Shown here in pieces: positions 8,748-62,685 of a stretch of 64,000 bases of DNA. The translations under genes and the position numbers were made by a program. Positions within the stretch are counted from its first letter, which is position 1, and every line of letters starts with the position of its first letter. The notes beneath the pieces are model-generated. The model searched no databases. It was given only the letters and a program-made list of their open reading frames with translations, and was not told where the DNA came from. The DNA comes from a virus. The stretch covers positions 1 to 64,000 of the IMG/VR virus record IMGVR_UViG_3300005095_000128; one strand, given 5' to 3'.

Positions 8748-11546
8748 CTAGCTCCTAAAGTACACGACGGTGTAGCTTGCAATCAAATCGCCATTGCGCA
8801 ACGAGAATGACGATTCGGTCACTAGGCCACCATTAAGGAAGTCGCCGGCAATCGGCACCGTACCGAGCTCCCCGCAATTCACACCCTCGTAGCGCAAGTA
8901 GCCGATCTGCTTGCGGGCATTAGCGGCATATTGCGCATACGGAGCACCGTCATCCATCGGTGGTACAGCAGGGATCGACGACGAACCGAAAGCGTAGTCT
9001 ATGACGTGTAGGTTATTGAGGCACCGCGATGCCTGCTCGTTGTCATCCGGGAACGGAGACACGATGGGGGTGTAGAGGTTGAGCCCAGGCACGGTAATCG
9101 ATTCGCTCCCAGCAGTGCCGCCAATCGGTACATCCTCCTCGTAGGTCGTAAGACCTTCACGCGGCGACGAGGTGGAACCGTAGCGACACTGCTCGCGCCC
9201 ACAATCCGTGCGCTGGGTGGCCGCGCAATCCGAGTGTTGCGGGCCATTGTCGGTGACCTCGCTAAACGTCTCTAGCTCGGTTAACGCAAGCCCCTGCAGC
9301 GACGAACCGATCTCGTTGAGCACGTCACGCGAATCGCTAGACACGTAGAATGGAACACCATTGGTACGGTATCCGGTGTGGAGCCATAGACCATTACCGA
9401 GCGGCAACCACTTCTCAACGACATCGTACTGGCCGACGTACTTGAACGTCAGGCCGCTAGCTGTGAAATGAATCGTGTCAACCTTGACGGTGCGCTTGGA
9501 GTGTCTTGCAACATACCCCTTCGGTGCCCACTCATAGGTTTCCACCTCGTATCGGTAGACGAACTCTTGATTGGAAAGTTGGTTGTAAATCGCCTCGTTA
9601 ATCGACGGATCCTCAGCAAGCGAAAGCACATTACGCCTAGTGATCGCCACACGTGTTGTGAGTGCATCAGGGCACGGCACGCCATCTCGCGCGATGTAAC
9701 TGTAAAAAATCTCCATGATTTCGACAGGAAACATACGCTTCTCGTACCCAACAATCGTAAATCCACCTGCCAAAATTGGCCGCCATACCTCGTATGCAGT
9801 TTCGTATGCCTCGTAAACCACCACACCACACTGCTTGCGAATAGTGTGCGTAACAATTTTGTGAGCAACGTCATAATCCTCGGGCAGAAGAAGATCGCCG
9901 GGAAGCGTCGCGAACCCAACATAGTGAATGCGCGTGCGCGTCACCTCGGTGAGCTCGTAGGTGTCAAGCTCACTCGGCTCCTTGCGATCAGAGGCGCATT
10001 CATCGGGCGGCTGCTCGGGCTCATTAGCCTCCGGCCACGGCCCGCCGGTAACGTGAACAGACCTCGGAAGGCGCACAAGCTGCTCGGCCCTCTCATTAGC
10101 CCGAGGATCCGTCGGAACGGCGGACTGGCGAGCATTGGTTGGCCACCCACCGATGATCCGCACACCCCACTCAGGGCTGACGAAAATAAATGGACGCGCC
10201 CATCCGATGAGGCGGTTGACGACCTCAGAGGCGGTCACCTCGTCGGCGCCGTGCCACATATCGAACGGCACGTAATCACCGAGGCCAGGAATCGTCGAGT
10301 CGATGTCGTAATCATCAACAACCTGCCCTAGCGCATCGCGAATCGACTCGAGCACTGTCGGACGCGATACGTGGCTACGCAAGCGGTTGAGGTCCTCGAG
10401 GCACACGTAGCCGGAGGTGTCAATGATCTTGCGCACCGGATCTTCCGCATAAAGCGGCGTCACCGGCTTGCCAAGGAGCTCAGCAACGGTGATAGACCCG
10501 TCAATGGTGTACAAGCACTTCTCAGTGTCGTAGACCTTCTGCTGTACGATGAACTTGAATCGCCGTCCCCACAAGAAGATGGAAACGGTATCACCAACAC
10601 TGGCACTTGCCCACGGGTGGTCGGGCACCACAACGGCCGAGAATCGAATCGCACCTTCGGACGAACTCACACGCAAATCGACAAGCCCGTTGACCTCATC
10701 CGGCACGAACCATCCAGGTGTGCTCGATGAGGCGAGTACCGTATAATCGATGCCTAACGCTGCTTCGCTAGTAGCCGGAACAACGGTATACTTCGTGGAA
10801 ATCGCCGAGTAATACGTATCAGGAACAACCTCGTATGCAGCACGCAAGCGGAAGGTTTCCTGCACATCGTAGTCGACGACGAGCGATCGCGCCCACGCCG
10901 GAACCTCGTAAGAAATATCTAGCGGCGCAACCTTCCAAACCTTGTAATCGACGACTAGAGGATCAGAAACAGCATACTCAATGTCAATCGGCCCCGTCAC
11001 GGGCACGGCGTAATCGACCGCTAGTGGCCACCCGTTGCCAACGTCGTACTCGATCGTGAGGTTGCCAGAAACGAAGTAGGTGATAAAAAGTGGCGAAGCA
11101 TAAAGAACGTCGTAGCTAACCGCTAGCGGCTTGGCAACCTTGTAAGCAACCGTTAGCGGCGGTGGCACATTGTACTCAATGCGCAGCGGAGATGCGTACA
11201 GAACCTGGTAATCAACGTCTAGAATCGATGGAACGGAGTACTGGATGTGCAGCGACGGCGGAACGTTGTACTCGACCGTGATACACCACGCACCGGCCCA
11301 GTCAGCCGTTGGGGCACCAGAAGGGCCAGTTCCCCAGCCTTCACCCCATCCGGTTCCCCAGCCTACCGGTGCACACGGATCGACCGCCTGAGACCACGAG
11401 TTGCCCCAATCGGAACCCCAGTTGCCACTCGGAGTCGTGCTACCGTCCGAGCTCCAGGCATTACCCCAATCGTTTCCCCATCCAGACGGAGTAGTCGCGT
11501 CACATGGGGAGGGGGGTGGATACGATGGTGGTGTACACGCCGGCAT
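8748..11546 (-). CDS. Tail tip/baseplate hub-like protein with N-terminal repeats
   Basis: 932 aa downstream of the tape measure. WGxxWG repeats, then many PLxVxYxV repeats, then a hub-like region. Confidence 0.6.
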   Translation of the reverse strand: MPACTPPSYPPPSPCDATTPSGWGNDWGNAWSSDGSTTPSGNWGSDWGNSWSQAVDPCAPVGWGTGWGEGWGTGPSGAPTADWAGAWCITVEYNVPPSLHIQYSVPSILDVDYQVLYASPLRIEYNVPPPLTVAYKVAKPLAVSYDVLYASPLFITYFVSGNLTIEYDVGNGWPLAVDYAVPVTGPIDIEYAVSDPLVVDYKVWKVAPLDISYEVPAWARSLVVDYDVQETFRLRAAYEVVPDTYYSAISTKYTVVPATSEAALGIDYTVLASSSTPGWFVPDEVNGLVDLRVSSSEGAIRFSAVVVPDHPWASASVGDTVSIFLWGRRFKFIVQQKVYDTEKCLYTIDGSITVAELLGKPVTPLYAEDPVRKIIDTSGYVCLEDLNRLRSHVSRPTVLESIRDALGQVVDDYDIDSTIPGLGDYVPFDMWHGADEVTASEVVNRLIGWARPFIFVSPEWGVRIIGGWPTNARQSAVPTDPRANERAEQLVRLPRSVHVTGGPWPEANEPEQPPDECASDRKEPSELDTYELTEVTRTRIHYVGFATLPGDLLLPEDYDVAHKIVTHTIRKQCGVVVYEAYETAYEVWRPILAGGFTIVGYEKRMFPVEIMEIFYSYIARDGVPCPDALTTRVAITRRNVLSLAEDPSINEAIYNQLSNQEFVYRYEVETYEWAPKGYVARHSKRTVKVDTIHFTASGLTFKYVGQYDVVEKWLPLGNGLWLHTGYRTNGVPFYVSSDSRDVLNEIGSSLQGLALTELETFSEVTDNGPQHSDCAATQRTDCGREQCRYGSTSSPREGLTTYEEDVPIGGTAGSESITVPGLNLYTPIVSPFPDDNEQASRCLNNLHVIDYAFGSSSIPAVPPMDDGAPYAQYAANARKQIGYLRYEGVNCGELGTVPIAGDFLNGGLVTESSFSLRNGDLIASYTVVYFRS

Positions 11547-21528: not shown

Positions 21529-21603
21529 TGGCTGGCCGGGCAGGACTCGAACCTGCACCGCCGGGTCCAAAGCCCGATGTGCTGCCGATTACACCACCGG
21601 CCA
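21529..21603 (-). tRNA. tRNA-Gln(TTG)
   Basis: Cloverleaf with acceptor TGGCCGG/CCGGCCA, anticodon loop CT-TTG-GA, GGTTCGAGTCC and encoded CCA. Confidence 0.95.
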
Positions 21604-21606
21604 ATG

Positions 21607-21681
21607 TGGCTGGCCGGGTAGGAGTCGAACCTACGACCAGGCGGTTAACAGCCGCCCGCTCTACCACTGAGCTACCGGCCA
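21607..21681 (-). tRNA. tRNA-Asn(GTT)
   Basis: Cloverleaf with D-arm TAGCTCAGTGGTAGAGC, anticodon loop CT-GTT-AA, GGTTCGACTCC and encoded CCA. Confidence 0.96.
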
Positions 21682-48246: not shown

Positions 48247-48249
48247 GCT
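48221..48249 (+). promoter_or_regulatory. Sigma70 promoter for the Y-RNA-like cluster
   Basis: TTGACA-17-TAAGCT, followed by ~290 nt with no credible ORF. Confidence 0.75.
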
Positions 48250-48289
48250 ATTGGCGATGTCCGATACGGGCACCCGACAACGAGCAAGC

Positions 48290-48397
48290 GCGAGCGGTAT
48301 GCCGTGGCGGGTTATTGGGCGAATAGCTAGAGGTTCGACTCCTCACCATAGCGCGGTCAAACCGCGCGTGACTCCCGCCACGAGTTCGACCGCTCGC
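48290..48397 (+). ncRNA. Y RNA-like RNA 1 (with T-arm)
   Basis: Stems GCGAGCGGT/ACCGCTCGC and CGTGGCGGG/CCCGCCACG separated by an ATGC/AGTTCG internal loop; GAGG-TTCGACT-CCTC T-arm; adjacent to Ro60. Confidence 0.75.
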
Positions 48398-48414
48398 TTC
48401 TAATACGAGAATCT

Positions 48415-48498
48415 CCCCGGTATGCTGCAAGGGGTTACCGAATGTGGATCGGGACACCCTGCTAAGGTGTACAAACCCCCTTGCGAACTTGACCGGGG
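48415..48498 (+). ncRNA. Y RNA-like RNA 2 (with D-like and anticodon-like arms)
   Basis: CCCCGGT/ACCGGGG and GCAAGGGG/CCCCTTGC stems; same GGTATGC 5' motif; 3' CTTGACC; ends in TTGATTTTT. Confidence 0.7.
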
Positions 48499-48545
48499 TT
48501 GATTTTTATCTCTAGGGGTGATAAGCTTGCTACCGGGAGGATGAG

Positions 48546-50048
48546 ATGCAGGTTAACCGTGTAAAGGGTATGTATAATAGTGCTCGTTCAAAGCTTCCTG
48601 GCCGCGAACATGAGATGACCTATAACGACGCCGGTGGCGCCGTCTTCATCGACGATGCGAAGCGACTCGAGCGGTTCATCATTCTCGGCATCGACGAGGG
48701 GACGATCTACGCTACGCCGGAAGAAATCCATGAGCGTACCATCGAGCTTATTCGCGAGCTTCCCTATGAGACCTTCAAGCGCGTCATGATCGAGGCGGCA
48801 CCGAAAGCGTGGCGCAAGCGGAACCCGATTGCGGCCATTGCGATCCGCGCCGCCCTTACCGACGATCGCGCTCTCATTTTCAACGATTTGCTACCGAACC
48901 TTCCTGGCTTGTTCAAGACGCCCTCCGACCTGCTTTACTTCGCCTCCATGTACCGTGGCGCGTTCAGGAAGCCGTTTAGCCGCTCGGTGCGCCGGTTCGT
49001 CCAGCGCAAGCTCCACGACTTCGACGACTACCAGCTTGCCAAGTACCGCAAGCGCTATGGCATTTCCACGAGCGATCTCCTAAAGCTCGCGCACCCGCAC
49101 CCTGGCGATCGCAACGCTGTCTTCCACTACCTCCTGGATGGTGAATACACCGACGAACTTGCCGGCACCATCTTCGAGGGCCTCAAGCTGGCCAACATCG
49201 CCGGTACGGTCGACGAGGTGCTCAAGGTCGCCGAGCGCTTCAACCTCTCGTGGGAGATGCTCCCCTCGTGGGCGCTCAAGGATGCGGACACCTGGGTTGG
49301 CCTCTACCGCATGGGCAAGATTCCGGCAATGGCGCTCCTGCGCAACGCATGGCGCTTTGACCGGGATGGCGTACCAGGCGATGTTTTCGATAGCGTTGTG
49401 GAAGATCTCTCCAAGATCCACCGCCGTGGCGTGCACCCCGGGTACATCCTGACGGCCGCCATCGAGTTAAAGCGCCGCAACGCAAGCTACGATTTGGTCG
49501 ATGCGCTCTTCAAGGCGTTCGACGCCGCATCGAGTAGCAACGCTGCGCACGACATGCGCATCGGGCTTGCCATCGACAATAGCGGCTCCATGTGGTGGGG
49601 CATGATCGGTGGGATGTTGCGCCTCGAGGCCGCACTCGCGCTTGGTAGCGTGATCGACTCTGCCTTCCGGCGCGTATCGGTGACCTACTTTAGCAATAGA
49701 GCGTACAACCTCAACATCCGCCCGCGTTCCGCGCTCGATAGCTTCGAGGATACGTTGCGCGAGTATAGCGGAGGCACTAGCGTGGCTAGCGCTCTAAGCC
49801 ACCTTGCCGATCGCCGTGGCGACGGATACGACGCGACCGTAGTGATCACCGACGAGCAGAACTGGGCTGGCGAGAGCGTGCAGATGACCTACCAGCGGCA
49901 CAAGAAGACGCTTGGCAAGCTCATCATCGTGACCGTTGACGCTAGCGCGAAGGGCTCGCTCACCGACCCCAAGGATCCTGACCAGGTGACGGTCGTCGGC
50001 TTGGTGCCCGAGATCGACAAGGTGATCGCTGAGTTCGTGCGCGGGTAA
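48546..50048 (+). CDS. Ro60/Rsr (TROVE plus vWA) RNA-binding protein
   Basis: NDAGG...RLERFIILG..GTIY, KYRKR...DLLKLAHP, WE.LPS, MALLRN, HP, DNSGSM MIDAS, GGT and ITDEQNW. Own promoter TTGATT-17-TAAGCT at 48499-48527. Confidence 0.92.
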   Translation: MQVNRVKGMYNSARSKLPGREHEMTYNDAGGAVFIDDAKRLERFIILGIDEGTIYATPEEIHERTIELIRELPYETFKRVMIEAAPKAWRKRNPIAAIAIRAALTDDRALIFNDLLPNLPGLFKTPSDLLYFASMYRGAFRKPFSRSVRRFVQRKLHDFDDYQLAKYRKRYGISTSDLLKLAHPHPGDRNAVFHYLLDGEYTDELAGTIFEGLKLANIAGTVDEVLKVAERFNLSWEMLPSWALKDADTWVGLYRMGKIPAMALLRNAWRFDRDGVPGDVFDSVVEDLSKIHRRGVHPGYILTAAIELKRRNASYDLVDALFKAFDAASSSNAAHDMRIGLAIDNSGSMWWGMIGGMLRLEAALALGSVIDSAFRRVSVTYFSNRAYNLNIRPRSALDSFEDTLREYSGGTSVASALSHLADRRGDGYDATVVITDEQNWAGESVQMTYQRHKKTLGKLIIVTVDASAKGSLTDPKDPDQVTVVGLVPEIDKVIAEFVRG

Positions 50049-56525: not shown

Positions 56526-57272
56526 ATGTGCCAGCTACAAGGTTTTAGACTCCTCCATAGCCAGGACGGCGGAGTTGTTCGCCTCAGCGCCCATATGGGC
56601 CAGGACGGCGTACTATTCCGCGAGGAGGGCCCTAATGGCGAGCTCGACATCACTATCGATGGCAAGCTCATCCTCATCCAGGAACACGGTGAGGGCGAAT
56701 ACGCAAGCATAGACATCAATGATGACGGAAGCGTCGATGTCGTTGACCAAAGCAACAACGTAATCGCTCGAGCCAATGGCGCTATCGTCATCAACGGCAC
56801 AACGACATACGTTCTCGTCGTGCGCCCATCCGGTCACACTATCACCGTGGATCGCGACGGCATCTACCGGGTGTCGGCAAGCTTCGGCGACGGTAGCCCG
56901 GTAAGCACGAAAGCTATCTACGGCGACGACTCCATCTTCATGTCACGTGACAAGGTGGCTTACACGTTGGATCGTGAGCACCTCTTCGTATCGGTTCGCC
57001 TATGCGACCAGAGCGGGATAGCGCTTATCACGTTGCAAAGCACTCTTACCGGCGAAGATGCGACCCTACTAGCTACCCAAAATGGTGGGTTCATTCCAGC
57101 CGATGGCTCGGCTCAAATCGAGCTTGGCTTGGGCGACGTGAATGTGTACGTCAACGGTAGCAGGTTAACGGTGAGTAGGTCTAGCGCTAGCAGCGGCTCG
57201 TGTGGCGACATTAACATGCGATACGATGGGGAGTCGCTCCTGCATGTTATCCTCGACGAGCAACAACCCTAA
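56526..57272 (+). CDS. Hypothetical beta-rich protein
   Basis: 248-aa ORF of repetitive beta-hairpin character. Confidence 0.55.
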   Translation: MCQLQGFRLLHSQDGGVVRLSAHMGQDGVLFREEGPNGELDITIDGKLILIQEHGEGEYASIDINDDGSVDVVDQSNNVIARANGAIVINGTTTYVLVVRPSGHTITVDRDGIYRVSASFGDGSPVSTKAIYGDDSIFMSRDKVAYTLDREHLFVSVRLCDQSGIALITLQSTLTGEDATLLATQNGGFIPADGSAQIELGLGDVNVYVNGSRLTVSRSSASSGSCGDINMRYDGESLLHVILDEQQP

Positions 57273-57832
57273 CCCGACCTGTCGAAGGGCGTTAGCCCTT
57301 CGCAGCGGCAACGTGCGCACCATGCTCACCAATAGCAAAGACAAGGCAAAGATCACCGTAGCTGACCACGAGCTCACCATCTATGCGATCGTTGGTAAAC
57401 GCACCAACGGAAAAAGCGCCCTACTTATTGTCATAGGCGATGATAATGAACAAGACCAGCAGCTAGGTATACGCTTGGATTTTTGACGCTCGACAGTTGT
57501 CTGTTGGTTGGTTTGTCTTGGGGTTTTGTCGGCGCTTGTGTGGCTAGCAGAGGGGTGGCCTAGCCTTCGTTTGCTTTTGGGGTTGTGAGTTTTGGCTTTT
57601 TGCGCTTGGTGCTTGGCTGGGTATCGGGGTGCTTTATTGGGGGATTCTACGCTCGAGAAAAAAGAGAGTACCCCCTCCCTCTTCAGTTGCTTCCTCGATG
57701 GAAAGTGTTCTCTCCCTCACAATCCATAATCATTCTAACAACACTTCCCACATTCCTTGAGTCCCTCACGCTCAGGCTTGCTGAGCTTGGCCGCCCATAG
57801 GGTATAAACTTTGACTGAGTTCAAAAACGCTA

Positions 57833-57939
57833 GAAAATGCGATAAGCATGGGCTTTATGCGCTACGCAGCATAAATGCGATAAGCATGCATACTTTACAT
57901 ATGCATAGCGGAAAAATGCGATAAGCATGGGTTTTATGC
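57833..57939 (+). repeat. Three direct repeats of AAATGCGATAAGCATG
   Basis: Copies at ~57835, 57873 and 57914; copies 1 and 3 extend GG(C/T)TTTATGC. Confidence 0.85.
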
Positions 57940-58147
57940 AAGCCGTCTGAGCTTGCCTACAGCATACCCCCCTGGGGGCGCTGAGGGGGATAGGCTTAGG
58001 GTGGGCTTGCGATAGATACGCAAAGCTTTACTTTTGTATAGCGTCTTGGAGGGATTCTAGGAAATGCGCATAGAAAGTGCGTAGATATGCGTGATATGAG
58101 GGATAGAATGCATAAGTTGGAATGTGTGTTCTGGTGCACATATGGGC

Positions 58148-58179
58148 TTGACACTAGGGTAGCATATATGCTACCCTAG
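58148..58179 (+). promoter_or_regulatory. Promoter overlapped by a 26-bp perfect palindrome (operator)
   Basis: TTGACA-18-TACCCT with CTAGGGTAGCATATATGCTACCCTAG at 58154-58179. Confidence 0.7.
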
Positions 58180-58196
58180 GGGCGTAGGGGGATGTT

Positions 58197-58385
58197 ATGA
58201 GCAAGCGCTACCGGCAAATCTACCTTGAGCAAGCCCAGGCGTATGTTGTTACGGCCTGGAAAGATGGCAAGCGGGCCGAGCGTCATGTGTTTACCCGCTA
58301 CACTGATGCATCCGCATGCGCCGATGAACTGCTAAAACGATATGACGACGTACGCATGGTGTGCCCTGGTACTCCTGAGCCATAA
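58197..58385 (+). CDS. Small early hypothetical protein
   Basis: GGGGGA SD, downstream of the promoter. Confidence 0.55.
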   Translation: MSKRYRQIYLEQAQAYVVTAWKDGKRAERHVFTRYTDASACADELLKRYDDVRMVCPGTPEP

Positions 58386-58626
58386 GCGGGATAGGGGCCT
58401 TTGGCCCCTATCCTACCCCCCCTATCCTACCCCCTCATGGCCGGCCGCCTTGACGCGGCGAGGGGGCTCCCCCGAGAGGGGGTCTAAGTGCCGGCCGGGG
58501 ACCTTGAAAGCCTAGCCCATGCGCCGCCCCGCCCATGCGCGTATGCCCCCGCGTATGGGCATAGGGGTAGGCTAGGGGCGCGTTAGGCCCATACGCGCGT
58601 AAGCGCGTATGGGCTAGGGGGTAAAA

Positions 58627-59058
58627 ATGACCTGGAGCGAATACTCACGCGAATACGAAAAACTAACTAAGGCTATCCAGGACGCACTTGCGGCGCACCT
58701 TGGCAAGGGCGCCGCCAAGCGCTTGGTGTCCGCCGGCGAATCGGCGGCGCTGAACACCCTAAAGGCCTTAGACCCGGCCAAGGGCCGGGAACTGGCCAAG
58801 GCGCTTGACGCCTTGGCCGCCCAAGCGCGTAACGTGGCCTTAGATACGGCCACGGAATACGCAAGGCAAGCGCTTCAGGCGCGTGAGCGATACGAAAAAA
58901 CGCTCAGCAAGCTCAACGCGCGTTTTTCGAGCAAAGGCGATAAGGTAAGTATTGCCCTAATGGGTAATACTTACACTTTTGTAATCAAGGCCGGGGGGCG
59001 CTTGGAGCTCATCCCCAAGACCCCACGGGGGGCCAAGGGCCCCCGCCGGCGCAAGTAA
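58627..59058 (+). CDS. Basic helical hypothetical protein
   Basis: GGGGGT SD; Ala/Lys/Arg-rich. Confidence 0.6.
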   Translation: MTWSEYSREYEKLTKAIQDALAAHLGKGAAKRLVSAGESAALNTLKALDPAKGRELAKALDALAAQARNVALDTATEYARQALQARERYEKTLSKLNARFSSKGDKVSIALMGNTYTFVIKAGGRLELIPKTPRGAKGPRRRK

Positions 59059-59491
59059 GGCATAGGCGCATGGGCTAGGCTCAGGGGGCGGATTATCCCG
59101 CCCCCTAAAATAAACCCGGCAAGCCATAATCATCATAAACATTTTTCCAGGCTTGCCGGGCGGCGCGAAGGCCGGAGTGAGTCCAAGCTCCGGCCGGGGC
59201 CGCGGTTGCGCTTGCATCCCGGCCCTAAATACGCGGCCTAGTATTCGGCCGCGTATCGCGCCGGAATTTTTGAACAAATAAAGCGGGACTCCCTACGCGC
59301 TTGCCGCCGGCGCGTAGGGGTTTAGCGAAACGGCGGTGTGCCCCGGTAGGGGGTGCAAAAGTAGGCCACGGGCTTAGGGTCCTTGCGCTAGCCCGGGCAT
59401 ATGCGTGTACATGCTGCCATACGTTTAGTATCACGCCGCGCAACATATGCTTACGCAAGCTCGCCCGGCTACCTGGCTCCGGGTAGCCGTA

Positions 59492-59813
59492 GCCCGTGCT
59501 AGCGCGTAGAGAGGACGTGGCAACCCCGCCTATGGGCGGGCGGGGTTATGGCCGTGGCCGGGGCGCGTAGCGATATGCGCTAACGCAAGGCATTGCGCCG
59601 GAAAAGACTTCGTGCGCCCTAGGTGGACCACTGCACCACCCGATTGGTATTTGAACCGGCTAGCGGGTGGTGTGCAAGTGGTCTACCGACTCGGGTGGTG
59701 AATGCAGCCCGAGGTATCCCCCGCGAATCCGCCCCGCCTTGACGTGGCGCGGGGGCTCGGCGCGTAGGCGCCGCGAAGAGGGCGGAAGCCCGTAAGTCCT
59801 GACCCGCATGGGC
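59492..59813 (+). ncRNA. Candidate large multibranch structured RNA
   Basis: Nested closing helices and at least six internal hairpins; no credible ORF. Strand is inferred from G-U pairs and GNRA loop. Confidence 0.5.
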
Positions 59814-59835
59814 AGGCTGGGCAAGGGGGTATACA

Positions 59836-60279
59836 ATGCTCAAGGGCATGCAAGTGCAGCGCAAGGCGGAAGTGCGTGGGAACAACGTCAAGCTTCGTTA
59901 TATCATCGAAAAAGATGGTGCATCGCATGGGATCTTCAACCAGGGCGGAACAAACAACGGCAAAACTGGCGTACTAAACCACCTTTTGGCATACGAGCTC
60001 GCAAAAGATGTGTTTCCAAGCCTAACCGAGAGGGAAGTGGTCGAAGCGTTTGGCGAGTTCTACTTCCCAGATGGAACTTGGCTCGATTCTGGCGGCTACT
60101 ACTATTCTATTGTGGCCACATACAAGGACAAAAACGTGATCACACAGGTGCACCGTGCAATCTTTGATTGGCTCCGTCGCGGCATAGAAGCAGCCGCGGC
60201 GCTTGAAGAGCGCCGCGGGCTCGAGCGGTGGCTCTGGGAAGAAGCCACCTTTAGCTTGGATGGACGGAGGGTTGGCTAA
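59836..60279 (+). CDS. Hypothetical protein
   Basis: GGGGGT SD; 147 aa. Confidence 0.6.
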   Translation: MLKGMQVQRKAEVRGNNVKLRYIIEKDGASHGIFNQGGTNNGKTGVLNHLLAYELAKDVFPSLTEREVVEAFGEFYFPDGTWLDSGGYYYSIVATYKDKNVITQVHRAIFDWLRRGIEAAAALEERRGLERWLWEEATFSLDGRRVG

Positions 60280-60485
60280 TGCGATACAGAATCGTTTACC
60301 GCGCCCCGGGGGTTCTTCCCCGGGGTACCAGGCGGGAGGAGTATTCCTCCCGCGACAAGGCAATGGCCCGTGCGGTGGAGCTAAGCCGCGCGGGGTACAT
60401 GGTCGAGGTCTACCCCGTTTACCCGCGTCCAAACGGGCGCGAGTGGCGGGGTACGCCCCTACGCCTGGAGCCTAGGCCGGCGTAG
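60279..60485 (+). CDS. Small hypothetical protein
   Basis: TAATG coupling; GGAGG SD. Confidence 0.5.
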   Translation: MRYRIVYRAPGVLPRGTRREEYSSRDKAMARAVELSRAGYMVEVYPVYPRPNGREWRGTPLRLEPRPA

Positions 60486-60638
60486 GGGTGATAGGGCATG
60501 GCCAAGGTACGCCGCTACCCCGCCCCGCCCAGCAAGGGGCGGGGCTACTATCCCACATGGCTCGAGCGAGACGCCGGGCCACTGGGCAAGTTTTCGTGGC
60601 GGAGGAAGTAAAGTACCCTCCGCCACGCAAGTAAGCTC

Positions 60639-60680
60639 GAGCCCTGGGACTTTGGCCCCAGGGCTTTTATTTTTTTGTTT
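60639..60680 (+). terminator. Intrinsic terminator
   Basis: GAGCCCTGGG...CCCAGGGCTT followed by a long T-run. Confidence 0.8.
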
Positions 60681-60806
60681 TTATTTTTGAGCACACAAAC
60701 CTAGTTTCCCGGTCTATATTTCCGCGCGGTGTAGGCCGGGGTTTTGCAGTTTACGCGCGGGCATGTGACTGCGAAGGGCAAAGCCCTTCGCAGAAAGGAG
60801 GATGAA

Positions 60807-61073
60807 ATGCCAAAGTATATGGTCACCTACAACCAGCCCGGCTACCTCCCCGAGTCGGAACCCATCTACGCCGACTCGGTGGAGGAAGCCATCGAGGCAT
60901 ATCGGCATGTAGTTGAAGACATCCTCGAGGCTGGCCCACTCGACACGGCCGGCCTCAAGGAAACCATCCTTCGCTTTGGCGGGGTGGCTGGCACATTCGC
61001 CACCCCCGAAGGTATCTGGTACGCGGTCGACATTGACCTTGTACCGGAAGGCAACGGAGGGGGTGAGATTTAG
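60807..61073 (+). CDS. Acidic hypothetical protein
   Basis: AAAGGAGG SD; YNQPGYLPESEP motif. Confidence 0.6.
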   Translation: MPKYMVTYNQPGYLPESEPIYADSVEEAIEAYRHVVEDILEAGPLDTAGLKETILRFGGVAGTFATPEGIWYAVDIDLVPEGNGGGEI

Positions 61074-61440
61074 GTAAAAATCTTAGTCGGCTCGGGGTGT
61101 TGCCTGCACCCCACTAGGCGGAGCCCTGGGGTTTGGGTCATATTTGGGAATCATTTTAGCGCCAACCCTAGGGCTCAGGAGCTTTTTGTGCCTTGCTTAT
61201 CGCATTTGAACTCGGTACAAAAATCCATTTTTACCAAAGAATCGCTCCAAATAACTCATTCGCACGCGATTTTCCGCGTGCGCATCGGCATTCCCGCGCT
61301 CCGGTCGGGCGCGGATACGAGCTCGTGAAACACTGGAAACTTTTTAGGGCTTGTATCCGCCCTAGGAGCGATTGGCATTTTTCGCGATAGGCAAGGCAAG
61401 TGAAGAAAGAGCACAAGCGTGAAACATATGGGGGTTCGAG

Positions 61441-62364: not shown

Positions 62365-62685
62365 CTAATCTGGCACGAAACACAAAGGTCAACCGAAGGG
62401 GTAGCATATATGTTGCCGTGGCAAAAGCCCCAGGCTACCCCGCGTTGGGTTATCCCAAATGGTGGGATGACCAAGATGTAATACGCGCTTACATTGTTGA
62501 CTTGGTGCAAATAGGTTTGGTGCATCTAGTGAAGGGGGGTGAAAGTGGTGAAGCGTTATATCTAGGTGGGGAGTAGTGGTGATTAGTGGTAGTAGGTCTA
62601 AAGGCGTTTTGGGGTGTGGTGAAGTCCCGTTCCGCTGCGAAGGGCTAACGCCCTTCGACAGCAATAGCTAGTGGGAGGTGAGAAA

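What the first reader, a model, noticed from the sequence alone, without database searches (positions are those of the whole stretch)
59466..59813. Large multibranch RNA candidate of no recognisable class
Seen: nested closing helices GCCCGTGC/GCATGGGC (59492/59806) and AGGAC/GTCCT (59512/59796). They enclose hairpins at 59522-59547, 59622-59687 (long, bulged), 59690-59713, 59718-59755, 59758-59773 and GGGC-GGAA-GCCC (59780-59791). It lies in ~750 nt without a credible ORF. Inference: a novel ~320-nt ncRNA or ribozyme-like element in the early region.
Basis: partly seen in the sequence, partly recalled or inferred. Interest (0 to 1): 0.7.

Follow-up and report, generated by a model that had tools for sequence, protein, structure and literature searches.

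The report
Structured untranslated RNA in phage operon
A 777-base gene-free stretch in the early region of a probably heat-loving phage folds into a chain of very stable RNA hairpins that related phages keep by paired mutations, but it is not the single closed 320-base RNA first proposed and its function is still unknown.

Summary
The stretch folds far better than shuffles: z -4.7 for 59466-59813, and z -8.3 for the whole 777-nt gene-free gap 59059-59835.

Their pairing probability is 0.99 there and 0.00 in every larger context. Their 3' strands lie in a separate 5'-UTR and gene cassette that a related phage has swapped.

No Rfam family matches. No ORF in the gap survives the single-base indels seen in relatives.

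Contigs of related phages in four sequencing runs keep the non-coding block. One hairpin shows three fully compensatory pair changes under a conserved loop. Two other hairpins are replaced outright.

A 40-nt two-stem motif ("R1") occurs at 58430 and 59718, near the ends of the 1.36-kb block that relatives conserve. It recurs in two unrelated bacterial MAG contigs, each within 300 nt of a sub-threshold match to a self-cleaving ribozyme (hammerhead, twister).

Best reading (0.45): a modular, cis-acting structured spacer of a + strand early polycistronic mRNA, serving processing, stability or translation control. Rivals are stand-alone ncRNA(s), a new ribozyme-type processing signal, and a DNA-level element.

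Other first-stage readers had already noted this same stretch. No note concerns other DNA.

The parts
58430..58469 (+). R1 motif, copy A. Outer 6-bp stem, 10-nt 5' bulge, inner 4-bp stem with a 7-nt loop UUGACGY. It starts 4 nt inside the left edge (58426) of the block conserved in relatives.
   Evidence: Covariance model R1, built only from two foreign loci, scores it 39.7 bits, E 4e-7, with all pairs standard. The left edge of likeness in runs X1 and X2 is 58426.
58509..58525 (+). 5' arm of a perfect 17-bp long-range helix that encloses the 143-aa ORF.
   Evidence: Inverted repeat I7, 100% complementary. Pairing probability 0.99 in a 1.9-kb fold.
58627..59058 (+). 143-aa ORF with a basic C-terminal tail. 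It is a real gene, conserved together with the structured block.
   Evidence: 17 of the 25 X1 differences listed inside it fall on codon position 3 (table 3; only 40 of 215 differences are printed). Full-length relatives P0003 (63% identity), P0005 and P0009. No Pfam, PDB or Atlas match.
59065..59081 (+). 3' arm of the 17-bp long-range helix. It marks the start of the structured gap.
59083..59160 (+). Two hairpins: a 9-bp stem (59083-59106), and an 11-bp stem closing a 24-nt A/U-rich loop (59115-59160).
   Evidence: p 0.98-1.00. Neither is followed by a U-tract.
59161..59263 (+). Four-way junction domain. A 7-bp closing stem carries three arms (59170-59195, 59196-59226, 59230-59255). It is followed by UUUUU, the only U-run in the gap.
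   Evidence: For the nearly identical span 59160-59270, z -6.66 (+) and -6.20 (-) at 37 C; for 59161-59263, z -6.67 at 65 C. Tail. ARAGORN calls no tRNA here.
59291..59319 (+). Hairpin with a 10-bp perfect stem.
59364..59559 (+). Rod-like domain of four stacked helices (8+5+8+5 bp). It encloses hairpin 59466-59489 and carries hairpin 59522-59547.
   Evidence: each helix p 0.98-0.99. z -3.3 (+) at 65 C. It lies inside the stretch that X1 covers (59330-59566); X3 and X4 cover 59479-59563 with 7 of 85 and (over 59479-59676) 18 of 198 other letters. No covariation data for it.
59622..59687 (+). Long bulged hairpin of 11+10 bp with two G-U pairs. It is a variable module.
   Evidence: p 0.96-0.99. 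In X1 and X2 the stretch 59567-59686 is replaced by 90 and 88 other letters inside one contig (table 5). X4 keeps it up to 59676.
59690..59713 (+). Hairpin with a conserved 10-12-nt loop and a covarying stem.
   Evidence: The X3 loose end (table 7) keeps all 6 pairs. Three of them changed on both sides (U-A to C-G, C-G to G-C, G-C to U-A). The loop differs at 2 positions.
59718..59758 (+).
   Evidence: 36.6 bits, E 2.5e-6. The sixth pair of the outer stem is G-C here, U-A in copy A and L039, and A-U in L040.
59758..59773 (+). 6-bp hairpin with a 4-nt loop.
   Evidence: In X3 a different 7-bp hairpin stands at the same place, followed by the same word GCGAAGAGGG (table 7).
59780..59791 (+). Small hairpin GGGC/GCCC. 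It spans the 59786/59787 boundary of the swapped cassette.
Evidence: One X2 contig end carries 2 extra letters in its loop (table 7).
59788..59824 (+). 5'-UTR hairpin module of the downstream gene.
   Evidence: Local hairpin p 0.99-1.00 in all larger folds. An X1 contig of 5,429 nt carries this module (5 other letters) between an A/T-rich stretch and an AGGAGG-type ribosome-binding site plus ATG of another gene (tables 7, 8).
59836..60279 (+). 147-aa orphan ORF, part of the cassette swapped in a relative.
   Evidence: Only itself was found among 5.8 billion clustered proteins. X1 has 623 other letters in place of 59787-60308 (table 5).

Best explanation
The finding is the 3' two-fifths of a 777-nt untranslated, highly structured spacer (59059-59835). 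The spacer sits inside a + strand early operon of small orphan genes, in a phage whose protein composition suggests a thermophilic host. It is not one closed RNA. It is a chain of autonomous modules: hairpins, a four-way junction, a rod-like domain, a long duplex and a two-stem motif (R1). The modules act in cis on the RNA. A 17-bp stalk encloses the upstream ORF, and a 21-bp hairpin offers double-stranded substrates for an RNase III-type nuclease. R1 stands near both ends of the 1.36-kb unit (58426-59786) that relatives inherit as a block. The next cistron starts with a hairpin that elsewhere sits at the promoter-proximal end of an mRNA. Cutting the polycistronic RNA near 59787 would therefore give the downstream mRNA the same protective 5' end. 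Shown by computation: the structure, its non-coding nature, its partial conservation by compensatory change, its modularity and the recurrence of R1. Inferred: transcription as one + strand RNA, processing, and any effect on stability or translation.
For: The region is the genome's outlier for stable structure.
It is non-coding. It has no Pfam hit for 7 ORFs of 42-105 aa. Single-base deletions at 59432, 59457 and 59717 in relatives break every ORF there. The listed indels avoid the flanking real gene, whose listed differences are 17 of 25 at codon position 3.
Eight of the nine perfect hairpins in the gap lack a U-tract; the ninth has only 3 T in the next 10 bases. A canonical terminator with a long U-run closes the operon at 60639-60666. 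The hairpins are therefore likely read through and remain part of the transcript.
Structure is kept while sequence changes. Hairpin 59690-59713 has 3 of 6 pairs changed on both sides under a conserved loop. A different hairpin stands at 59758-59773 and another sequence replaces 59567-59686. A C-to-U change at 58511 in the 17-bp stalk would still give a G-U pair if its partner is unchanged.
G-U pairs favour the + strand: 27 against 11 in the minimum-energy folds of the gap, and a U-G pair in R1 of L040. All four R1 copies are in sense with their neighbouring genes.
A model built from foreign loci alone finds exactly two R1 copies in 83.6 kb, near the two ends of the conserved block.
Module 59788-59824 recurs right before another gene's ribosome-binding site, after an A/T-rich stretch.
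In larger folds CCCCC 59718-59722 can pair with the Shine-Dalgarno G-run 59825-59829 (p 0.87).
Against: There are no transcript data at all. The + and - strands fold about equally well by z-score, so the choice of strand rests on G-U counts and gene orientation. G-U counts are confounded by base composition.
Covariation comes from a handful of short, low-depth contigs of one run (X3, depth 2) and from four R1 copies. For R1, 44 of 500 shuffles reach the observed covariation.
The non-coding block is no better conserved than the neighbouring gene: about 88-92% alike in both. Conservation alone therefore shows no selection.
The sub-stretches 59271-59465 and 59466-59620 do not beat shuffles on their own (z -1.3 and -1.8).
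777 nt is very long for a mere spacer in a phage.
No nuclease site, promoter or processing signal was demonstrated.
Confidence: 0.45

Rival explanations
1. The gap encodes one or more stand-alone non-coding RNAs of a new class. They would act in trans, or as a scaffold with a protein such as the basic-tailed 143-aa neighbour or the phage's Ro60. Candidates are the four-way-junction RNA 59161-59263, which ends in a U-run, and the domain 59364-59559.
For: GC is 63.7% in the gap against 57.2% genome-wide, which in a probable thermophile is typical of structured RNA genes. The junction domain has z -6.7 and is followed by UUUUU. A conserved loop over a covarying stem suggests specific recognition. 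The 143-aa gene and the structured block are inherited together in X1 and X2. The phage carries an RNA-handling protein, Ro60.
Against: No promoter-like site lies inside the gap; the one hit at 59809-59837 abuts the start codon. There is no terminator apart from the weak U5. Better Y-RNA-like candidates lie directly upstream of the Ro60 gene, 9.4 kb away. Modules are swapped or replaced independently in relatives, which fits loose cis elements better than one folded machine.
Confidence: 0.25
2. R1, and perhaps other modules, are self-processing or nuclease-guiding signals of a new kind. They would be functional analogues of the self-cleaving ribozymes that punctuate transcripts of mobile elements, and would release the 1.3-kb unit 58430-59758 as a defined RNA.
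For: Besides the phage's two copies, the only R1 copies found in 185,579 species genomes lie about 190 nt from a hammerhead type III match (L039, E 3.5e-5, canonical core) and about 280 nt from a twister-P1 match (L040, E 6.3e-9). Both sit in long non-coding stretches, and one is next to a serine recombinase. R1 copies lie near both ends of the block conserved in relatives. Another first-stage reader independently called this a ribozyme-bracketed unit.
Against: Both ribozyme matches are below Rfam's gathering scores. There are only two foreign loci, so the association could be chance. No known ribozyme scores anywhere in the window, and no hammerhead core word occurs on either strand of 58380-61100. 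R1 is a simple two-stem hairpin with no sign of a catalytic core. It was not found in the 150 and 69 other genomes searched in the two MAGs' orders.
Confidence: 0.08
3. The element works as DNA. The dense palindromes and repeated words would be recombination hot spots or cassette boundaries, or a replication, packaging or protein-binding region. This would resemble the promoter/stem-loop (PeSL) cassettes that shuffle genes in T4-type phages.
For: Most stems are perfect Watson-Crick palindromes, and both strands fold equally well. Relatives show gene-sized swaps exactly between conserved non-coding blocks, at 58426, 59786/59787, 60308/60309, 60490/60513 and 60608/60703. Words such as GCCCATGCGC and its complement recur. 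PeSL precedent: PMC2839356 and PMC4122927 (search listing and abstract starts only).
Against: G-U and U-G pairs would be mismatches in DNA. Compensatory changes with a conserved loop are not needed for homologous recombination. No iterons or A/T-rich unwinding element occur in the gap. No promoter consensus lies in R1, as read from the sequence.
Confidence: 0.1
4. The stretch has no function. It would be GC-rich debris of decayed genes or hairpin-forming selfish repeats, tolerated in a variable early region.
For: The flanking genes are orphans. The region is mosaic. Two sub-stretches are not significantly structured.
Against: The gap has z -8.3 and a hairpin density about 8 times the genome background. 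Compensatory changes are seen. R1 is shared with unrelated bacterial contigs.
Confidence: 0.07

Closest known systems
RNase III-processed intercistronic hairpins and stalks (phage T7 early mRNA, phage lambda leaders, rRNA operon stalks). Recalled textbook knowledge; for RNase III only the search listing was seen.
   Same: Long perfect or near-perfect duplexes lie between small early cistrons of one transcript: a 17-bp stalk around an ORF and a 21-bp hairpin. They are not followed by U-tracts.
   Different: Cleavage is untested and the host and its nucleases are unknown. The spacer is about ten times longer than a T7 site and contains junction domains.
PeSL promoter/stem-loop cassettes of T4-type phages (PMC2839356, PMC4122927; listing and abstract starts)
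   Same: Conserved non-coding stem-loop blocks flank small orphan genes that are inserted, deleted or replaced between close relatives.
   Different: No early-promoter consensus was found in the blocks. The blocks here are up to 777 nt, and their stems show compensatory change.
Large ornate bacterial and phage ncRNAs (GOLLD, ROOL, OLE; PMC12286853 listing and abstract start; PMC5737381 passages)
   Same: Several hundred nucleotides of multi-helix structure in a phage, with no obvious coding or cis-regulatory logic.
   Different: No Rfam match even at E<=10. The modules are exchangeable rather than forming one conserved architecture. It is not next to tRNAs; the phage's two tRNAs are 38 kb away.
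Y RNAs / YrlA, the partners of Ro60 (PMC4201824 and PMC12135203, passages read)
   Same: The phage encodes Ro60.
   Different: It lies 9.4 kb from the Ro60 gene. The terminal stem is not robust. The motif GNCGAAN0-1G is absent and there is no tRNA-like arm. Two better candidates lie directly upstream of Ro60.
Self-cleaving ribozymes of mobile elements (hammerhead, twister)
   Same: The R1 motif shares long non-coding neighbourhoods with sub-threshold ribozyme matches in two bacterial contigs.
   Different: No ribozyme model or core word matches in the window.

Membership tests
Any Rfam 15 family (4,227 models) | Covariance-model score at or near the family's gathering score | tested here: not met
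   Whole window at gathering: two tRNAs only. E<=10 on 57200-60000: best hits 12-23 bits against gathering scores of 40-100, all implausible families. E<=0.5 on the whole window: nothing new.
Hammerhead ribozyme | Core words CUGANGA and GAAA around three stems (recalled), or a score with RF00008, RF00163 or related models | tested here: not met
   No CUGANGA on either strand of 58380-61100. No model hit.
Twister, pistol, hatchet and HDV-like ribozymes | Rfam model score | tested here: not met
   No hit at E<=10 in 57200-60000. The same search does detect twister-P1 and Hammerhead_3 in L040 and L039, so the method works on such loci.
Group I or group II intron | Interrupts a gene whose exons join into one frame; intron core (P3-P9, or domain V) recognised by a model | tested here: not met
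   The upstream ORF ends with its own stop at 59058, and the downstream ORF has its own ribosome-binding site and ATG. There is no Intron_gpI or Intron_gpII hit.
Y RNA / YrlA | Encoded next to the Ro60 gene | tested here: not met
   Ro60 is at 48546-50048 and the finding at 59466-59813.
Y RNA / YrlA | Motif GNCGAAN0-1G and a tRNA-like domain (PMC4201824) | tested here: not met
   The motif is absent from 59059-59835. ARAGORN finds nothing there.
Y RNA / YrlA | Stable stem formed by the 5' and 3' ends | tested here: not met
RNase III processing sites | Double-stranded RNA of about two helical turns in a transcript (recalled) | tested here: met
   17-bp perfect stalk 58509-58525/59065-59081, and an 11+10-bp hairpin 59622-59687. 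This shows structure only.
RNase III processing sites | Cleavage by the host enzyme | not testable with these tools
   The host is unknown and there are no RNA data.
Intrinsic terminators | GC-rich hairpin followed by a U-tract | tested here: not met
   None of the nine perfect hairpins has more than 3 T in the next 10 bases. The scan finds no terminator in the gap, but a canonical one at 60639-60666.
PeSL-type shuffling cassettes | Conserved non-coding blocks flanking swapped ORFs in close relatives | tested here: met
   Joints inside single contigs at 59786/60309, 60490/60513 and 60608/60703 (table 5).
PeSL-type shuffling cassettes | The block contains an early promoter plus a terminator stem-loop | tested here: inconclusive
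   No sigma-70-like site in the blocks apart from chance-level hits: 4 found against 2.4 expected. The host's promoter type is unknown.

The most novel reading that the evidence does not exclude
The 1.36-kb unit 58426-59786 is a new kind of phage RNA module. It would be a defined RNA released from the early transcript at the R1 signals near its two ends. It carries a small basic protein gene plus about 700 nt of ornate, thermostable RNA domains that work together, for example as an RNP or as a decoy against host RNA-targeting defence or decay. R1 would be a previously undescribed processing motif, belonging to the same functional neighbourhood as hammerhead and twister ribozymes in mobile elements.
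Probability: 0.15. Interest if true: 0.85.

Novelty: new variant of a known kind. Interest (0 to 1): 0.55.

Why it matters
Phage genomes are tightly packed, so 777 nt of conserved, GC-enriched, gene-free structure in an early operon is costly and unlikely to be idle. If it is a processing or stability spacer, it would be an unusually elaborate case of RNA-level control in a probable thermophile's phage. It would also provide thermostable RNA modules. If the R1 motif proves to be a processing signal linked to ribozyme neighbourhoods, it would bear on the open question of what clustered self-cleaving ribozymes do in mobile elements. The same phage also carries Ro60 with two likely Y-RNA-like genes, which makes it a compact system for studying viral manipulation of structured-RNA turnover.

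Tried and rejected
Known RNA families: rejected.

Coding: rejected. There is no Pfam hit for 7 ORFs, and indels in relatives break the ORFs. Alternative genetic codes were not tried, because long ORFs elsewhere read normally under table 11.

Intron: rejected.

Y RNA: rejected for this locus.

Hammerhead core words: none.

A local word (AAUGCAGCC) is shared with the twister of L040. I judged it coincidence, because the rest of the twister consensus does not fit and cmscan is silent.

Collecting homologues mostly failed:
- The flanking ORFs have no relatives in viral contigs.
- A 776-nt DNA search of the phage's own record found only itself plus the 25-nt repeat.
- blastn and tblastn against GenBank phages: no match.
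- Four DNA patterns in viral contigs: 0 hits.
- One gapped pattern in metagenome contigs: 21 hits, all unrelated coding sequence with no blastn likeness.
- A profile of the 143-aa protein in viral contigs and genome contigs: none.
- Major head protein relatives are at most 34% identical, too far for RNA comparison.
- The 147-aa and 143-aa ORFs have no close relatives among the 5.8 billion clusters.
- A full HMMER scan found three relatives of the 143-aa ORF, but their DNA could not be fetched.

R1 was not found in 150 and 69 other genomes of the two MAGs' orders.

The look-up of sequencing runs: no RNA holder listed, so nothing can be said on expression. Parts of the stretch without contig cover (for example 59847-60119) are not interpreted.

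The non-coding regions around R1 in L040 and L039 fold with z -2.8 and -0.85. They are not clearly alike in structure to the window's gap.

The supplements of PMC5737381 and PMC10690425, which hold catalogues of candidate RNA motifs including phage motifs, are closed. R1 or parts of this region could be listed there, so I cannot say they are not in print.
Full report
**Context.** The window is the first 64 kb of an 83,581-nt IMG/VR virus record, estimated 61% complete. It is a tailed phage. It has a terminase, portal and major head protein, a 2,687-aa ORF in the structural block, and primase, DnaB, a SNF2 helicase and a Rad52-like protein further on. It also has two tRNAs. Its head protein is at most 34% identical to anything in IMG/VR or GenBank phages, so the phage is isolated.

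The amino-acid composition of its long ORFs (IVYWREL fraction 0.428) corresponds to roughly 65 C by the Zeldovich 2007 relation, which I recall from memory. One of the four runs holding related contigs is labelled a hydrothermal vent metagenome. The host is probably a thermophile.

**Observation.** The gene-free gap is 59059-59835, 777 nt, between a 143-aa ORF and a 147-aa ORF, both on the + strand.

The - strand gives z -3.99.
- The whole gap gives z -8.3 (+) and -7.9 (-) at 37 C, and -7.4 and -8.5 at 65 C.
- In the whole record, 30 of 124 perfect hairpins with stems of at least 8 bp fall in 58-61 kb. That is about 10 per kb against about 1.2 per kb elsewhere. Nine of them are in the gap.
- The same region heads a genome-wide scan of folding energy corrected for GC.
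- The gap has 63.7% GC against 57.2% for the genome.

The structure is therefore well beyond chance.

**What does not hold.** The proposed closed ~320-nt architecture fails.
- The outer closing helix has pairing probability 0.99 when the sequence is cut at 59466-59813, but 0.00 in each of four larger contexts.
- In a 1.9-kb fold the two 5' strands pair with upstream partners (p 0.98-0.99). Together with two further helices they build a rod-like domain, 59364-59559.
- The 3' strands form a local hairpin just upstream of the ribosome-binding site.
- The comparative data agree. In run X1 the similarity stops at 59786, and 623 other letters replace 59787-60308 within one contig. The piece 59788-59824 occurs in a different 5.4-kb X1 contig, between an A/T-rich stretch and the ribosome-binding site and ATG of another gene. 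That piece is a 5'-UTR module of the downstream cassette, not the closing strand of an upstream RNA.

**Anatomy**. In order along the + strand:
1. A perfect 17-bp long-range helix (58509-58525 with 59065-59081, p 0.99) encloses the 143-aa ORF.
2. Two hairpins at 59083-59160.
3. A four-way junction at 59161-59263, followed by the only U-run in the gap.
4. A hairpin at 59291-59319.
5. The rod domain at 59364-59559, carrying hairpins 59466-59489 and 59522-59547.
6. A weaker stretch.
7. A long 11+10-bp hairpin at 59622-59687.
8. Hairpin 59690-59713.
9. A two-stem motif at 59718-59758.
10. Hairpins 59758-59773 and 59780-59791.
11. The 5'-UTR hairpin.

None of the nine perfect hairpins is followed by a U-tract. 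A textbook terminator with a long U-run stands at 60639-60666. The likely unit is one + strand early transcript from around 58.1 kb to 60.7 kb, with the structured gap inside it. This is inferred.

**Not coding, not a known RNA.**
- Rfam gives only the two tRNAs at gathering thresholds. It gives nothing credible at E<=10 locally or E<=0.5 window-wide.
- Seven ORFs of 42-105 aa in the gap have no Pfam match.
- Relatives carry single-base deletions at 59432, 59457 and 59717 that break all of them.
- By contrast, 17 of the 25 listed X1 differences inside the 143-aa ORF are at codon position 3 (only 40 of 215 differences are printed). That ORF also has three full-length relatives sharing its basic tail. 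It is a real gene.

**Comparative evidence** (contigs only, 4 runs from 2 studies). X1 and X2 cover 58426-59566 and 59687-59786 at about 88-92% likeness, the same level as the neighbouring gene. Conservation alone therefore proves nothing. The informative points are these:
- Hairpin 59690-59713 in X3 keeps all six pairs. Three changed on both sides, while the loop changed at only two positions.
- At 59758-59773, X3 has a different 7-bp hairpin, followed by the same 10-nt word.
- The long hairpin region 59567-59686 is replaced by 88-90 other letters in X1 and X2, but kept in X4.
- X1 has C to U at 58511 in the 17-bp stalk, which would still pair with G.
- Gene-sized swaps or insertions lie between the conserved non-coding blocks.

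This is the pattern of structure-constrained modules in a mosaic region. It rests on few, short, low-depth contigs.

**The R1 motif.** A 25-nt word occurs twice, at 58445 and 59734, with 0 matches in shuffles. A 23-nt core scanned over one genome of each of 185,579 species gave two hits: L039 (Syntrophaceae MAG) and L040 (Paludibacteraceae MAG). Both extend to the same two-stem shape.

A covariance model built from these two alone finds the two window copies at 39.7 and 36.6 bits (E 4e-7 and 2.5e-6) and nothing else in the 83.6-kb record. All 40 pair cells are standard. One pair takes three forms (U-A twice, A-U, G-C) and another is U-G in L040. With four sequences, however, 44 of 500 shuffles do as well.

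In the window the two copies sit 4 nt inside the left edge, and 28 nt inside the right edge, of the block conserved in relatives.

In L039 a hammerhead type III match with a canonical core lies about 190 nt upstream (37.8 bits, E 3.5e-5). In L040 a twister-P1 match lies about 280 nt downstream (50.5 bits, E 6.3e-9), along with weaker hatchet and HDV-like matches. All are below gathering scores. L039 has a serine recombinase next door. R1 was not found in 150 and 69 other genomes of those orders. It looks sporadic, as expected for a mobile or phage-borne element.

**Interpretation.** I read the gap as a modular, cis-acting structured spacer of an early polycistronic mRNA (confidence 0.45).
- The stalk and the long hairpin are plausible double-strand nuclease substrates.
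- R1 marks the ends of the inherited unit.
- The next cistron begins with a hairpin that elsewhere appears to sit at an mRNA's promoter-proximal end. Processing near 59787 would recreate that protective 5' end.
- A C-run in R1-B can alternatively pair with the Shine-Dalgarno G-run.

All functional steps are inferred.

Rivals:
- Stand-alone ncRNA(s), perhaps working with the basic 143-aa protein or Ro60 (0.25).
- A DNA-level recombination or binding element, like the PeSL cassettes (0.10).
- R1 and its neighbours as a new self-processing signal (0.08).
- No function (0.07).

Strand assignment is weak. The z-scores are alike on both strands. The + strand is favoured by G-U pairs (27 against 11), by the U-G pair in L040, and by gene orientation.

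**Comparison and novelty.** The element works most like RNase III-punctuated early phage transcripts and like PeSL-type regulatory cassettes. It fails the membership tests for every named RNA family tried: ribozymes, introns, Y RNA and large ornate RNAs. The sequence family and the R1 motif match nothing in Rfam 15. The catalogues in closed supplements could not be checked. I class it as a new variant of a known kind. There is a 0.15 chance that the 1.36-kb unit is something genuinely new: a released RNA module combining a small basic protein gene with ornate thermostable RNA.

**Limits.** There are no RNA data. The host is unknown.

Noticed in passing
window 48247-48545 (+), upstream of the Ro60 gene 48546-50048: The phage encodes a Ro60/TROVE protein (Pfam TROVE 2.5e-16, vWA_Ro60 9e-15; phrog_850). 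The 300 nt just upstream fold into two stem-closed modules (z -5.24). The first carries a tRNA T-arm look-alike (GAGGTTCGACTCCTC). Three CGAA words are present, and the second module ends in a U-run. This is the arrangement reported for Yrl1 and Yrl2 upstream of Ro60 in Thermus phage phiLo (PMC12135203). Rfam and ARAGORN see nothing there, and the strict GNCGAAN0-1G motif is absent.
   Followed up: partly
L040:5354-5408 (-), L040:2806-2925 (-), L040:4979-5065 (-); L039:4897-4954 (+): Sub-threshold but convincing self-cleaving ribozyme matches lie in the two bacterial MAG contigs that carry the R1 motif: twister-P1 (E 6.3e-9) and hammerhead III (E 3.5e-5, canonical core). L040 also has weaker hatchet and HDV-like matches. 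The L040 cluster sits in a GC-rich non-coding island within an A/T-rich contig.
   Followed up: partly
window 60279-60745: The next 450 nt (GC up to 0.71) are as strongly structured as the target. They hold 8 perfect hairpins and rank second in the genome-wide scan, although they contain 68-aa and 37-aa ORFs. In X1 a 538-nt insertion sits between 60490 and 60513, and 60609-60702 is replaced by 88 letters.
   Followed up: no
window 58386-58626: The leader of the 143-aa ORF is also densely structured. It holds repeated GCCCATGCGC / GCGTATGGGC words that can pair with each other, with 59059-59081, and more weakly with 59802-31. This allows alternative long-range pairings.
   Followed up: partly
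window 57834-57939 and 61191-61207: There are three direct copies of a 27-nt unit about 40 nt apart, plus an inverted copy 3.3 kb downstream. There is also a perfect 30-bp inverted repeat at 57279-57308 / 62632-62661. These look like operator or boundary elements around the early region.
   Followed up: no
G000:C1:72600-72900 (L024 about 9000-9300): This is the third strongest outlier in the genome-wide folding scan (-3.6 sd). It lies at the junction of a 150-aa ORF and the SNF2-type helicase gene.
   Followed up: no
window 21529-21681 (-): The two phage tRNAs (Gln-UUG, Asn-GUU) share the same acceptor-stem letters and both encode their CCA ends. Their GC is 0.65-0.68.
   Followed up: no
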